The translations under genes were made by a program, and so were the position numbers. Source: Candidatus Eiseniibacteriota bacterium (GTDB taxonomy: Bacteria > Eisenbacteria > RBG-16-71-46). Taken from it: a stretch of 35,482 bases of DNA. Where the stretch lies: NCBI GenBank assembly GCA_041184705.1, contig JBEGJG010000021.1, forward strand, positions 1 through 35,482, given 5' to 3'. The notes under the pieces were generated by a model. That model was not told the DNA's origin and made no database searches. It saw nothing but the letters and a program-made list of their open reading frames with translations. Of the stretch, positions 22,612 through 28,427 are shown piece by piece; the first letter of the stretch is position 1; the number at the start of each line of letters is the position of its first letter.

Positions 22612-23414
22612 GCGGCGTCGGATCCTTCCGTGGACGGCGACAGGTCGCCTGCGAGCACGATGCGTTCGGGGCCTTCGGCGGTGCGTAGCACGAGTCCGCC
22701 CTCGTCGTCGAGGCGCAGGGCCGTGCCCGAGACCGGACCTGCCGGGGTCCGGACCGTGACCCATTCACCCCAGTGTGCCCCCCAACGGGTCCATTCGGCC
22801 AGTACGCGGGTGCGGTCCCCCTCCTGCAGGGCGTCCCACAGGGGCTCGAACCGGTTGGCGACCTCGGCCGCCGCGTCGGCGAGCGTGGCGGCCGAACCCT
22901 GCAGGGCGAGCGAGGTGGCGGTGGCGCGCAGTTCGGGCGGCAGATCGTCGGCGGTGTGCGCGACGTTGAGCCCGATGCCGATCGCGACCGCGTCGCCGCC
23001 CCCCGGCACGCGCCGCGCCTCGCACAGCACCCCCGCGAGCTTCGCTCCTGTCACGAGCACGTCGTTGGGCCACTTGAGTCGAGCCGAGGTCGCCCCCAGC
23101 GCGTGCACGGCCTGCAGCACCGCGAGCCCGGCCGCGAGCGGCACGAGCCCCAGCGCGCGACGGTCGCAGCCGAGGTGCAGCGCGAACGAGTACGCGAGAC
23201 CGCGCCCGGGCACCTGGTTCCACGACCGACCGGCGCGACCGCGGCCGGCGGTCTGCTCGAGCGCGAGCACCGCGGCCCCGTCGCCCAGCACGCCGAGCGC
23301 CTCCCAGACGTCGTCGTTGGTGGAGCCGGTGCGCTCGCGCACGACGAGCGCGCGCGCGAGCCGCCGGGTGGCGAGCCGGGACTCGAAGCGCGGGCGGTCG
23401 AAGGCGTCAGCCAA
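22608..23414 (-). CDS. birA: biotin--[acetyl-CoA-carboxylase] ligase (no N-terminal HTH)
   Basis: 268 aa. TGSTNDD, EQTAGRGRAGRSW, KWPNDVL. TTG start overlapping nadC by 8 nt. Confidence 0.88.
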   Translation of the reverse strand: MADAFDRPRFESRLATRRLARALVVRERTGSTNDDVWEALGVLGDGAAVLALEQTAGRGRAGRSWNQVPGRGLAYSFALHLGCDRRALGLVPLAAGLAVLQAVHALGATSARLKWPNDVLVTGAKLAGVLCEARRVPGGGDAVAIGIGLNVAHTADDLPPELRATATSLALQGSAATLADAAAEVANRFEPLWDALQEGDRTRVLAEWTRWGAHWGEWVTVRTPAGPVSGTALRLDDEGGLVLRTAEGPERIVLAGDLSPSTEGSDAA

Positions 23415-24563: not shown

Positions 24564-24890
24564 CTAGGCGGAGGGCTTGCCGTACGCGCGTTCGACGCGC
24601 GCGATGCGCAGGCGGTAGTCCGCGTACCACGTGCTGCGCCCGGTCTCCTGCGCGACGCGGTGCTCGGCGTGCGATCGCCACGCGGCGATGGCGTCCTCGC
24701 TCGTCCAGTACGAGACCGTGATCCCGAGCCCGTCGGCCCCGCGCGCGCTCTCGACCCCGAGGAACCCCGGCTGCTCCGCCGCCAGTTCCATCATGCGCTC
24801 GGCCATGCGCGCGTAGCCCTGATCCCCATCCGTGCGAAGCGAGGTGAAGACGACGGCGTAATAAGGGGGCTCTGGGGTGCGGGCGAGCAT
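24564..24890 (-). CDS. antibiotic-biosynthesis-monooxygenase (ABM/Dabb) domain protein
   Basis: About 108 aa. YYAVVFTS ... GFLGVES ... ITVSYWTSEDAIAAWRSHAEH pattern. ATG 24890 preceded by GAGGTGG. High GC, so host-like. Confidence 0.7.
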   Translation of the reverse strand: MLARTPEPPYYAVVFTSLRTDGDQGYARMAERMMELAAEQPGFLGVESARGADGLGITVSYWTSEDAIAAWRSHAEHRVAQETGRSTWYADYRLRIARVERAYGKPSA

Positions 24891-25064
24891 GACTAGCGCC
24901 ACCTCTCTTCGCGAGCACAACAGCCTGCAAGCTCAACAACAGCTAGGGGCACGCACCTGCGGCAATTCATCAGCATGCCAGACACGCGGCAAGCAACTTA
25001 ACTTAGGCCGCATCCACGCGCAATTACAGCCAATCAACCGCACTGCCTCGCGAATACGAAGCAC

Positions 25065-25982
25065 CTAGCGCTTGCGAAGCGATTCAACCAGCAGCTCCCT
25101 ATCAATCAATCCGTCGTACATCTCTCGCCGCACTTCACGACTTTTCATATCCATCCTAATGCGCCGAAGAAATGCACAAAAATCAGGGTTTACACTTGCC
25201 AACTTATTTACGGCCTCCCAGTCAACAACCTCTCTTGCCTTAGCCGGATAAACGATCTCGCTGGAATCAGGGTCGCCTATGTCAATGCGAATGACCCCGA
25301 TGCCAAACGACGCCGACAGGCGATTGAGTTCGCCCCTGAATTCTTCATCCACGTCAATGTCAACGGCCGCAAGATATCCTTCATTAGCCCATGAAGAATT
25401 GGATACGGCCTGAAAGAAGGCCTCTCGCAGATTGCCAATCGACAACTCACGCTTTAGCTCAAAGGAGTAGAGCTTGATGGCGGGATTGCCCATCACTGAA
25501 CTGACCTCAACAACTTCGTCTTCCCAATCATCAAACGGGAAATAGCATCCCACAAGATCCGGGTGCACCCACTCACCAAATCGCTTCTTCTCAGACTTGT
25601 GATGTCGAATCGTCTTTAGGTGTGCCCTAAGGTAGTAGAATCCAAAGTAGACAAGAAACGGATGAATGTCTTTTTCGAGATAACCAGCTACTTTTTCAGT
25701 CGCTGGCGACTGAATGTCCAGAATCCCTTTGTCTTGATCAAGAAGCTCACGCAACACAAACCTCTTTGGGGCTTTCCCTGTTGATACAAAGTCGGACATG
25801 GGATTATCACGAACATCCACATACAGCATCGCACCAAGGGTGGCCCACGGCGTCTTGCCCTTGGTCGCAAGGTCTTTTTCATAGCCCTTAGCTTGGGCCA
25901 TTCCCCAGATTTCGGGAGCAGACAAAGGGCGCTTTTCTTCCTTAAGCACCTTGTGAGCTAACTGCAGAAACATGCTTGGCAT
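25065..25982 (-). CDS. HARE-HTH + PD-(D/E)xK nuclease-fold protein (orphan restriction-endonuclease-like)
   Basis: 305-aa intact ORF. Residues about 5-80 match the HARE-HTH pattern (LAHKVLKEEKRPLSAPEIWGMA ... KTPWATLGAMLYVDVRD ... KRFVLREL). The C-terminal half has the ordered nuclease motifs E103 (YLEKD), P141-D142 (WVHPDLVG), E175-x-K177 (LYSFELK) and Q191 (FFQAVSN). A/T-rich codon usage. Confidence 0.75.
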   Translation of the reverse strand: MPSMFLQLAHKVLKEEKRPLSAPEIWGMAQAKGYEKDLATKGKTPWATLGAMLYVDVRDNPMSDFVSTGKAPKRFVLRELLDQDKGILDIQSPATEKVAGYLEKDIHPFLVYFGFYYLRAHLKTIRHHKSEKKRFGEWVHPDLVGCYFPFDDWEDEVVEVSSVMGNPAIKLYSFELKRELSIGNLREAFFQAVSNSSWANEGYLAAVDIDVDEEFRGELNRLSASFGIGVIRIDIGDPDSSEIVYPAKAREVVDWEAVNKLASVNPDFCAFLRRIRMDMKSREVRREMYDGLIDRELLVESLRKR

Positions 25983-26068
25983 TAGACTTGGCCTCGGGAA
26001 GGTTTAAGGTTACAGGTGACTATATGAAGTTTGACGAGTGAGGCGCACAGACGCAAGCGTATCTTCAT
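25982..26068 (-). CDS. hypothetical 28-aa upstream ORF whose stop overlaps the nuclease start (TAATG)
   Basis: ATG 26068 ... TAA 25984-25982, encoding MKIRLRLCASLVKLHIVTCNLKPSRGQV. No convincing SD, too short for composition tests, and may be spurious. Confidence 0.15.
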   Translation of the reverse strand: MKIRLRLCASLVKLHIVTCNLKPSRGQV

Positions 26069-26288
26069 GATGACGAGTGCCGCTCAGTCGCAAGACGACA
26101 CAAATCTATCTCCGCATGTCATTCACTGATCTTCATGACAGGCCCATAGACCGATGGCGCTATCTTCTTACGAAACACGCCTCTCAGAAGTGTGGGGCTA
26201 AGAGCCAACCCACGCCTGATGCTATGCGCCCCCACCCTTTCCAAACCTCCGCTTGACCTTGCGAGGCTCTCGTCCCGGTGAGACTCGG

Positions 26289-28361
<2,073 letters not shown>

Positions 28362-28427
28362 GGGACCCGAAACTACCACGCCACCCCGCGGGCGCGGGCG
28401 GGCGGATCCCTCCCCCGCTAGACCGAA

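What the first reader, a model, noticed from the sequence alone, without database searches (positions are those of the whole stretch)
24905..26221. ~1.3 kb low-GC island inserted exactly between the ABM gene start and the uvrB 3' end
- GC falls from about 75% (45/60 at 24601-24660) to 40-52% in hand-counted lines across 25081-26220, then returns to host level inside uvrB.
- The single ORF uses A/T-ending codons (AAA, ATT, TTT, GAT), unlike every other gene in the window.
- I found no integrase, transposase, tRNA/tmRNA target, terminal inverted repeats or flanking direct repeats. The acquisition route is therefore not explained by a recognisable mobile element.
- The island must also supply, or at least separate, the ABM gene promoter region.
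Basis: seen in the sequence. Interest (0 to 1): 0.7.

Follow-up and report, generated by a model that had tools for sequence, protein, structure and literature searches.

The report
Foreign nuclease gene cassette after uvrB
A 1.4-kb low-GC piece of foreign DNA carrying one HrgA-type predicted DNA-cutting gene sits directly after the repair gene uvrB in this uncultured bacterium. Sister strains have nothing there or a restriction-modification gene, so this is an ordinary strain-variable, probably defence-related hotspot.

Summary
GC drops to 0.44-0.53 only at about 25000-26200, against 0.64-0.78 elsewhere. Tetranucleotide distance is z=16.4 and GC3 is 0.53, against 0.92-0.96 in the neighbouring genes.

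The host is a Candidatus Eisenbacteria MAG. A conspecific contig (about 99% identical) shows an empty site, where the uvrB stop codon abuts the ABM start. There, 61 nt stand in place of window 24888-26294 (1407 nt). Another conspecific contig carries a type I hsdM gene immediately after uvrB. Six further contigs from relatives (84-96% UvrB identity) lack the island.

The island replaces the last 24 uvrB codons with a diverged, lower-GC uvrB tail and has no integrase, repeats or tRNA. It therefore most likely moved by homologous recombination of the flanks.

Its single gene (25065-25982, minus strand) belongs to the HrgA/COG2958/DUF511 family: an N-terminal HARE-HTH winged helix plus a PD-(D/E)XK nuclease domain with invariant D142 and E175-x-K177. 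A second allele in another sample gives dN/dS 0.10, so the gene is maintained by selection.

It is probably a solitary restriction-like defence nuclease, but its biochemical function is untested. I rate it a new member of a known kind, of moderate interest.

The parts
24888..26294 (.). The foreign segment: 1407 nt that stand in place of 61 nt in the conspecific empty-site contig L082.
   Evidence: The blastn breakpoints are L082 1-5287 = window 31612-26295 and L082 5349-13339 = window 24887-16897. GC is 0.51 and the tetranucleotide distance is z=16.4.
25065..25982 (-). HrgA/COG2958/DUF511-family gene of 305 aa, including the stop codon. It is the only gene on the island.
   Evidence: Pfam HARE-HTH at E 2.7e-13. 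35% identity and E 2e-47 to H. pylori HrgA. 6293 homologues. dN/dS 0.10 against allele L099.
25746..25967 (-). N-terminal HARE-HTH winged-helix domain (aa 6-79), the predicted DNA-binding or sensor module.
   Evidence: Pfam PF05066. Foldseek matches this region to forkhead, Z-alpha and RpoE winged helices, weakly.
25233..25685 (-). Predicted PD-(D/E)XK nuclease core (aa about 100-250), with E103, P141-D142, E175-x-K177 and Q191.
   Evidence: These residues are invariant in 40 sequences that include Helicobacter HrgA. The AF2 model (pLDDT 82) has an alpha-beta-beta-beta-alpha-beta order. The top Foldseek hits are restriction-fold nucleases, but with E 0.04-0.5.
26222..26294 (-). Imported replacement for the uvrB 3' end: the last 24 codons plus TAG in the native frame. 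GC is 0.62.
   Evidence: It encodes [25 protein letters not shown], where L082 and L083 have PRAAAEPRKVKRRFGRDK*. It resembles the tails of L084 and L087.
25983..26221 (-). 239-nt spacer between the uvrB stop and the hrgA-like start. It presumably carries the cassette's own expression signals, and GAGG lies 9 nt before the ATG.
   Evidence: Read directly from the sequence. There is no sigma-70 consensus match and no Rfam hit. It differs by 5.4% from allele L099.
24891..25064 (-). 174-nt spacer between the hrgA-like stop and the ABM start. No terminator is predicted.
   Evidence: No minus-strand terminator-like site. The RNA fold gives z=-0.04.
24564..24890 (-). ABM monooxygenase gene, a host gene. 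Its true start is the ATG at 24890.
   Evidence: Pfam ABM. Aligned with the ABM starts of L082 and L086.
26289..28364 (-). uvrB as it stands in the window, a host gene. Its C-terminus is frameshifted by the 31-bp duplication.
   Evidence: Pfam UvrB domains are found, but the UVR motif is only partial. P0121 is this protein and lacks PF02151.
26368..26429 (.). Exact 31-bp tandem duplication inside uvrB. It is not part of the island.
   Evidence: Repeat family D1. Removing one copy restores [20 protein letters not shown]... and a stop at 26222-26224. The duplication is absent from L082, L083 and L084.

Best explanation
This is a single-gene cassette in a strain-variable hotspot at the 3' end of uvrB in a Candidatus Eisenbacteria population.

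**How it got there (inferred).** The cassette was brought in by homologous recombination with a diverged donor that already carried it at the same locus. The imported tract starts inside the uvrB tail and ends at, or just inside, the ABM 5' end. That is why no integrase, att repeats or tRNA are present.

**What it encodes.** The cargo is an HrgA/COG2958-family protein: a HARE-HTH winged-helix DNA-binding domain fused to a PD-(D/E)XK nuclease domain.

**What it most likely does (inferred).** It probably acts as a solitary restriction-like defence nuclease with no methyltransferase partner. The winged helix would recognise some feature of foreign DNA, possibly a base modification, and the nuclease would cut it.

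**Shown:** foreign composition, the empty site, alternative R-M cargo, family membership, conserved catalytic residues and purifying selection.
**Inferred:** the recombination route, the nuclease activity and the defence role.
For: **Foreign origin and the hotspot**
- The composition is anomalous.
- L082 is an empty site in a conspecific contig.
- L083, about 99% identical up to the same breakpoint (26295), carries hsdM after uvrB.
- uvrB is followed within 2-150 nt by ABM or nadC in L084, L086, L087, L105 and L107, and within 2 nt by an uncharacterised ORF cut off at the contig end in L106.

**Recombination route**
- The island supplies a homologous but diverged uvrB tail.
- There are 6 mismatches in the first 72 nt of ABM, against about 1.1% further on.
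- There is no integrase, tRNA or repeat.
- In H. pylori, hrgA and hpyIIIR are exchanged by homologous recombination (Ando 2003, as summarised in PMC3045609).

**The gene**
- HARE-HTH domain.
- HrgA homology.
- Invariant E103, PD142, E175-x-K177 and Q191.
- The family has been assigned to the PD-(D/E)XK superfamily in the literature (PMC3045609 and PMC3424549).
- The AF2 core topology fits, and the weak Foldseek hits are almost all restriction-fold nucleases.
- dN/dS is 0.10 between two island alleles.

**Defence association**
- HrgA lies between hsdS and hsdR on Proteus plasmid pZF2-cfr.
- It lies directly before hsdR on a Vibrio plasmid.
- It lies beside two methyltransferases and a restriction endonuclease in C. 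butyricum.
- It lies beside hpyIIIM in H. pylori.
Against: - No activity has ever been shown for any HrgA-family protein.
- PADLOC, PHROGs and NCBIfam give no hit.
- Foldseek E-values never reach 0.001.
- In most genomes examined (L088, L090, L094, L101, L102) the gene sits alone among housekeeping genes, with no defence neighbours.
- The family is unusually conserved, at 60-71% identity across phyla, which is atypical for fast-evolving defence genes.
- SNP clusters as dense as those at the junction occur elsewhere between the window and L082 (23007-23111 and 26466-26512). The co-conversion argument is therefore only suggestive.
- The ultimate low-GC donor, and the event that first placed the gene after uvrB, are unknown. 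The closest other homologue is only 71% identical.
Confidence: 0.6

Rival explanations
1. The segment is the decayed remnant of a site-specific integrative element that targets the 3' end of uvrB and carries a surrogate gene end. The integrase and att sites have since been lost.
For: The island supplies a replacement uvrB tail, as elements that integrate into gene 3' ends do. The same junction holds different cargo in L083.
Against: There is no integrase, transposase, tRNA or flanking repeat. The displaced original uvrB tail is not found at the ABM side, so this is a replacement rather than a duplication. The whole segment is only 1.4 kb and has one intact gene under purifying selection.
Confidence: 0.12
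2. The gene is a selfish, free-standing homing-type endonuclease. It cuts the empty uvrB/ABM junction and is copied in by repair, with co-conversion of the flanks.
For: It is a free-standing nuclease gene placed precisely between two tightly packed conserved genes. Both flanks next to the insertion show raised divergence. There is a presence/absence polymorphism.
Against: Homologues that are 60-70% identical sit at unrelated loci in other phyla, which does not fit a sequence-specific homing site. The same site holds R-M cargo in L083. Comparable SNP clusters occur away from the junction.
Confidence: 0.07
3. The protein is a DNA-binding regulator or nucleoid or RNA-polymerase accessory factor, as its database annotation 'HTH domain-containing protein, regulation of transcription' suggests. 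The nuclease-like domain would be non-catalytic.
For: HARE-HTH also occurs in the RNA polymerase delta subunit (Pfam description; RpoE hit). The family is highly conserved. It often sits in a housekeeping context.
Against: The full PD-(D/E)XK catalytic constellation is invariant across the family. The gene is strain-variable and compositionally foreign. It is repeatedly linked to R-M genes.
Confidence: 0.12
4. The gene is ancestral at this locus and was deleted in the relatives, or the segment is an assembly chimera.
For: Nothing positive. It is considered because MAG contigs can be chimeric.
Against: Two independent Logan contigs span both junctions. GC3 is 0.53 against 0.92-0.96. Tight uvrB-ABM or uvrB-nadC junctions occur in relatives from 84% to 100% UvrB identity.
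Confidence: 0.02

Closest known systems
Helicobacter pylori HrgA (restriction endonuclease-replacing gene A; DUF511/PF04373, COG2958)
   Same: - The architecture and length match: an N-terminal winged helix plus PD-(D/E)XK motifs.
- Identity is 35% over 268 aa, E 2e-47.
- It is a presence/absence allele at a fixed chromosomal site, where the alternative allele is a restriction-modification gene.
- It is exchanged by homologous recombination of the flanks (PMC3045609).
- Its function is unknown.
   Different: - The host here is Candidatus Eisenbacteria (72% GC), and the site is the 3' end of uvrB rather than the hpyIII locus.
- No methyltransferase lies next to it.
- It belongs to a different, very conserved subclade (60-71% identity across Chloroflexota, Cyanobacteriota, Planctomycetota, Acidobacteriota and KSB1), which is recognised by Pfam HARE-HTH.
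- No Pfam domain is on record for the Helicobacter proteins, and the Vibrio plasmid HrgA gets no Pfam hit in a direct scan.
Type IV (modification-dependent) restriction enzymes built from a reader domain plus a PD-(D/E)XK nuclease, for example the winged-helix fusion endonucleases of the DpnI/HhiV4I type (PMC11037411)
   Same: - It is a single polypeptide with a winged-helix-type DNA reader fused to a restriction-fold nuclease.
- It has no cognate methyltransferase.
- It is horizontally mobile.
   Different: - The HARE-HTH has an extra helix, and its ligand is unknown. It has been proposed as a reader of modified cytosine or adenine, but this has not been shown (PMC11037411).
- No cleavage data exist.
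- There is no sequence similarity to characterised type IV enzymes.
Core-gene-flanked defence hotspots, such as the cDHS of Pseudomonas aeruginosa (PMC10250203), and the enterobacterial hsd-mrr 'immigration control region'
   Same: - The flanking genes are conserved.
- Conspecific strains show empty, HrgA and type I R-M states.
- The cargo has lower GC than the host.
- No dedicated mobility genes are present.
   Different: - The hotspot here holds a single 0.9-kb gene.
- The breakpoints lie inside the last codons of uvrB.
- Only four conspecific contigs could be compared.
PrrC-type genes embedded in type I R-M operons
   Same: On Proteus plasmid pZF2-cfr, HrgA lies between hsdS and hsdR. From my own knowledge, this is the position PrrC occupies in the prr locus.
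   Different: The window's copy has no hsd genes beside it. HrgA is a predicted DNase-fold protein, not an anticodon nuclease.

Membership tests
HrgA / COG2958 / DUF511 family | Full-length sequence similarity to H. pylori HrgA | tested here: met
   BLASTP against P0326 gives 35% identity over 268 aa, E 2e-47. tblastn hits are annotated 'HrgA protein' or 'COG2958 family protein'.
HrgA / COG2958 / DUF511 family | About 310-aa protein with an N-terminal winged helix | tested here: met
   305 aa. Pfam HARE-HTH covers aa 6-79 at E 2.7e-13.
HrgA / COG2958 / DUF511 family | The three PD-(D/E)XK motifs described for DUF511 (PMC3045609) | tested here: met
   E103, P141-D142, E175-x-K177 and Q191 are invariant in alignment A2, which includes Helicobacter HrgA.
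PD-(D/E)XK nuclease superfamily | Alpha-beta-beta-beta-alpha-beta core fold | tested here: inconclusive
   The AF2 model (pLDDT 82.4) has the element order H103-117, E120-124, E143-147, E170-180, H185-196, E201-209. The top Foldseek hits are FokI, NucC, EndoMS, PaqCI, Ecl18kI and SgrAI, but all have E 0.04-0.5. No PDB sequence hit was found.
PD-(D/E)XK nuclease superfamily | Metal-dependent phosphodiester cleavage | not testable with these tools
   This needs biochemistry.
Type IV modification-dependent restriction enzyme | No cognate methyltransferase | tested here: met
   The island has one gene, and its flanks are uvrB and ABM. Most homologues are solitary.
Type IV modification-dependent restriction enzyme | Cleaves only modified DNA, with the reader domain binding a modified base | not testable with these tools
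   The HARE-HTH ligand is only hypothesised in the literature (PMC11037411).
Integrase-mediated genomic island or transposable element | Integrase, transposase or recombinase gene | tested here: not met
   The only ORF of 100 aa or more in 24888-26294 is the HARE-HTH protein.
Integrase-mediated genomic island or transposable element | Flanking direct repeats (att or target-site duplication) or terminal inverted repeats | tested here: not met
   Only chance-level 10-15-nt matches were found. The displaced uvrB tail is not duplicated at the other end.
Integrase-mediated genomic island or transposable element | tRNA or tmRNA target | tested here: not met
   ARAGORN finds 0 genes in the window.
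Core-gene-flanked variable (defence) hotspot | Empty site and alternative cargo between the same core genes in conspecific strains | tested here: met
   L082 is empty. L083 carries hsdM. The window, L001 and L099 are occupied by hrgA.
Core-gene-flanked variable (defence) hotspot | The cargo is an experimentally known defence system | tested here: inconclusive
   hsdM in L083 is part of a type I R-M system. The hrgA-like gene has no PADLOC hit.

The most novel reading that the evidence does not exclude
HrgA/COG2958 proteins may be an unrecognised, very widespread family of single-gene restriction-like defence nucleases. The search found about 1100 clusters at 50% identity and more than 6000 at 90%. 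In this reading the HARE-HTH reads a feature of invading DNA, such as a base modification, and the PD-(D/E)XK domain cuts it. The gene would spread as a promoter-bearing cassette by flank recombination into R-M hotspots. It replaces R genes in Helicobacter, sits between hsdS and hsdR on plasmids, and alternates with type I R-M after uvrB here.
Probability: 0.35. Interest if true: 0.55.

Novelty: new member of a known kind. Interest (0 to 1): 0.4.

Why it matters
HrgA has been known since 2002 only as the gene that replaces a restriction enzyme in H. pylori, and it still has no assigned function. The same family appears here in an unrelated, uncultured phylum. It again behaves as a presence/absence allele that alternates with restriction-modification genes, and it is under purifying selection. 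This strengthens the case that HrgA is a mobile restriction-like function and gives a compact, well-delimited candidate (305 aa with its own upstream region) for defence screens. It also documents how a high-GC genome acquires and keeps a low-GC gene without any mobile-element machinery.

Tried and rejected
- **Genome-contig scan with UvrB.** None carries ABM or the island.
- **Metagenome-contig scan with a 29-nt uvrB-tail pattern.** It returned one chance match in an unrelated regulator gene (L085).
- **Exact look-up of the ABM protein.** It is not on record.
- **First AF2 model, from 60-70%-identical homologues only.** pLDDT was 69, the PD region was disordered, and the Foldseek result was uninformative. 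Adding Helicobacter HrgA sequences fixed this.
- **Library searches.** PADLOC, PHROGs, NCBIfam and PDB sequence searches gave no useful hit. The phage collection gave no match.
- **E. coli genomes.** They hold only 97-nt remnants of the plasmid hrgA.
- **Signals in the island's spacers.** Rfam, the terminator and promoter scans and the RNA fold found nothing.
- **Donor search by DNA.** Only the coding sequence aligns, at 66-70%, to other loci. No donor was identified.
- **Papers not held.** Aravind & Iyer 2012 and Ando 2003 could not be read. Their content is cited only through papers that summarise them.

Full report
**1.

In 200-nt windows, GC is 0.66-0.80 up to about 24900 and falls to 0.44-0.53 between about 25000 and 26200. 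It is back at 0.70 or above by 26200-26400. No other 500-nt window of the 35,482-nt contig is below 0.636.

I compared segment 24888-26294 with 90 other 1.4-kb windows:
- GC is 0.512 (z=-9.3).
- Tetranucleotide L1 distance is 0.87, against 0.25±0.04 for the other windows (z=16.4).
- The segment remains an outlier after normalising for base composition (z=7.1).

The one long ORF (25065-25982, minus strand, 305 aa) has GC3 0.53. The neighbouring uvrB has GC3 0.96 and ABM has 0.92.

There is no tRNA or tmRNA, no integrase or transposase ORF, and only chance-level short repeats.

**2. It is not an assembly artefact**

- The window is a whole contig of a MAG labelled Candidatus Eisenbacteria. Its UvrB is protein P0121 from a 35,482-nt NCBI contig.
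- A Logan contig from run SRR30127161 (L001, 1493 nt) is 100% identical to window 24807-26299, so it crosses both junctions.
- A Logan contig from another run (L099, SRR31724231) is 95.8% identical over 24831-26320 and again spans both junctions.

**3. Empty site, alternative cargo and relatives**

I used UvrB as an anchor and fetched contigs of close relatives.

| Locus | Relation to the window | What follows uvrB |
|---|---|---|
| L082 (ENA) | 98.6-98.9% nt identity | ABM directly: TAG then TTG, no spacer |
| L083 (JGI) | 98.9% nt identity up to 26295 | type I hsdM, GC 0.52-0.67 |
| L084 | UvrB 96% | nadC |
| L086 | UvrB 88% | ABM after 4 nt |
| L087 | UvrB 85% | nadC |
| L105, L107 | UvrB 84% | nadC after 2 nt |
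| L106 | UvrB 84% | ORF after 2 nt, cut off at the contig end, no Pfam data |

- In L082, 61 nt stand where the window has 24888-26294 (1407 nt).
- L083 diverges from the window at exactly the same breakpoint. The gene after its uvrB has HsdM_N and N6_Mtase domains.
- The tight uvrB-(ABM)-nadC-birA-tatC-coaX arrangement is therefore ancestral. The island is a gain, and the 3' end of uvrB is a site with at least three states in one species-level population.

**4. How it probably arrived**

The window's uvrB tail differs from the tail in the conspecific contigs:
- Window: ...[25 protein letters not shown] (GC 0.62).
- L082 and L083: ...PRAAAEPRKVKRRFGRDK* or ...RER*.

The window's tail is nevertheless clearly a uvrB tail. 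L084 has PRPDRVAPGREPRQVKRRFGKDR* and L087 has a similar sequence. L099 carries the same type of tail. The old tail is not found at the ABM end, so this is a replacement and not an insertion that duplicated its target.

On the ABM side the start changes from TTG-GAC-GGA to ATG. Six mismatches fall in the first 72 nt, against about 1.1% afterwards.

Together with the absence of mobility genes, this points to import by homologous recombination from a diverged relative that already had the cassette at this locus. This matches what was reported for hrgA and hpyIIIR in H. pylori (summarised in PMC3045609).

Two caveats apply:
- Similar SNP clusters occur elsewhere between the window and L082 (23007-23111 and 26466-26512).
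- The primary event that put a low-GC gene after uvrB, and the original donor, remain unknown. The best other homologue is 71% identical, and only the coding sequence aligns to other loci.

**5. What the gene is**

- Pfam finds only HARE-HTH, at aa 6-79.
- The protein has 6293 homologues. Most are 300-315 aa long and 60-71% identical across KSB1, Chloroflexota, Planctomycetota, Cyanobacteriota and Acidobacteriota. One is named 'COG2958 family protein'.
- tblastn against plasmids returns genes annotated 'HrgA protein' or 'COG2958 family protein'.
- BLASTP against H. pylori HrgA gives 35% identity over 268 aa, E 2e-47.
- In an alignment of both clades, E103, H107, P141-D142, S173-F-E175-x-K177, R186-E187, Q191 and SNSSWA194-199 are invariant. 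This is the PD-(D/E)XK signature that Laganeckas et al. 2010 (PMC3045609) and Steczkiewicz et al. 2012 (PMC3424549) assigned to DUF511/COG2958.
- An AF2 model built on the mixed alignment (pLDDT 82.4) shows the expected alpha-beta-beta-beta-alpha-beta order, with D142 and E175/K177 on adjacent strands.
- Foldseek's best PDB matches are FokI, NucC, EndoMS/NucS, PaqCI, Ecl18kI, SgrAI and AspBHI, but all have E 0.04-0.5. The fold evidence is consistent, not decisive.
- A search with the C-terminal 206 aa finds 1130 representative clusters, almost all with the same architecture.
- Between the window allele and L099, the gene has 17.5 synonymous and 6.5 non-synonymous differences (dS 0.091, dN/dS 0.10). 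The spacers differ by 5-9%. The gene is therefore maintained by selection in this lineage.

**6. What it probably does**

No HrgA-family protein has a demonstrated activity.

Contexts that point to restriction or defence:
- *H. pylori*: the gene replaces the R gene next to hpyIIIM.
- *Proteus plasmid pZF2-cfr*: the order is hsdM-hsdS-HrgA-hsdR with abutting genes.
- *A Vibrio conjugative plasmid*: HrgA is followed 17 nt later by hsdR.
- *The C. butyricum megaplasmid*: it precedes two methyltransferases and a restriction endonuclease.
- *This population*: it alternates with hsdM at one site.

Evidence against a defence role:
- Many homologues are solitary among housekeeping genes.
- PADLOC has no model for the family.
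- The family is unusually conserved.

My best reading (confidence about 0.6 for the package, lower for the biochemical role alone) is a solitary, methylase-independent restriction-like nuclease whose HARE-HTH selects the target. The literature has proposed HARE-HTH as a reader of modified bases, but this is unproven (PMC11037411). I rate a regulator role, a homing-type selfish nuclease and a decayed integrative element as less likely.

**7. Consequences for the neighbours**

In the empty-site strain ABM starts directly after the uvrB stop, so it has no promoter region of its own there. In the window the cassette lies in the same orientation, and no terminator-like structure is predicted on the minus strand. 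ABM and the downstream nadC-birA-tatC-coaX genes could be read through from uvrB or hrgA, or from signals within the cassette. This is inference only.

**8. Verdict**

This is a real, well-delimited horizontally acquired cassette at a strain-variable hotspot. It carries a member of a known but functionally uncharacterised nuclease family. I rate it a new member of a known kind and of moderate interest, mainly as a clean candidate for testing what HrgA proteins do.

Noticed in passing
window 26368-26429 (inside uvrB): An exact 31-bp tandem duplication frameshifts the UvrB C-terminus, so the UVR (UvrC-interaction) motif is cut short and the ORF ends at 26289. Removing one copy restores [20 protein letters not shown]... 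and the stop at 26222-26224. L082, L083 and L084 lack the duplication. It is either an assembly error or a real uvrB lesion in this strain.
   Followed up: partly
L082, L086 versus L084, L087, L105, L107 (downstream of uvrB): The ABM monooxygenase gene is itself variably present among Eisenbacteria relatives. It lies between uvrB and nadC in the window, L082 and L086. It is absent in L084, L087, L105 and L107, where nadC follows uvrB. The junction therefore varied even before the hrgA cassette arrived.
   Followed up: partly
L103 1719-8877 (Proteus terrae plasmid pZF2-cfr); L098 5704-9877 (Vibrio plasmid): HrgA is embedded in a type I R-M operon in the order hsdM-hsdS-HrgA-hsdR, with abutting genes. 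This is the position PrrC-like accessory genes occupy. The identical HrgA protein (WP_048626758.1) is on both plasmids.
   Followed up: partly
window 23007-23111 and 26466-26512: Between the window and the conspecific contig L082 there are clusters of 8 SNPs in 105 nt and 6 SNPs in 47 nt, against a background of about 1%. This suggests frequent short recombination imports across this region.
   Followed up: no
L088 762-2572: An AAA_15/AAA_21 ATPase plus DUF4276 gene pair, an AbiL-like defence pair by my recollection, lies about 5.5 kb upstream of the closest (71%) HrgA homologue.
   Followed up: no
L098 5704-6630; window 25065-25685: The nuclease domain of the HrgA family is not covered by any model in the Pfam-A, NCBIfam, PADLOC or PHROGs copies used. 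The Vibrio plasmid HrgA gets no Pfam hit at all, although the literature cites DUF511/PF04373 for it.
   Followed up: no
L088, L094 versus L090 (HrgA homologues in other phyla): HrgA homologues are also lower in GC than their surroundings in two of three other genomes checked: 0.455 against 0.58 and 0.41 against 0.485. In Dolichospermum the values are equal. This suggests repeated recent transfer from low-GC sources.
   Followed up: partly
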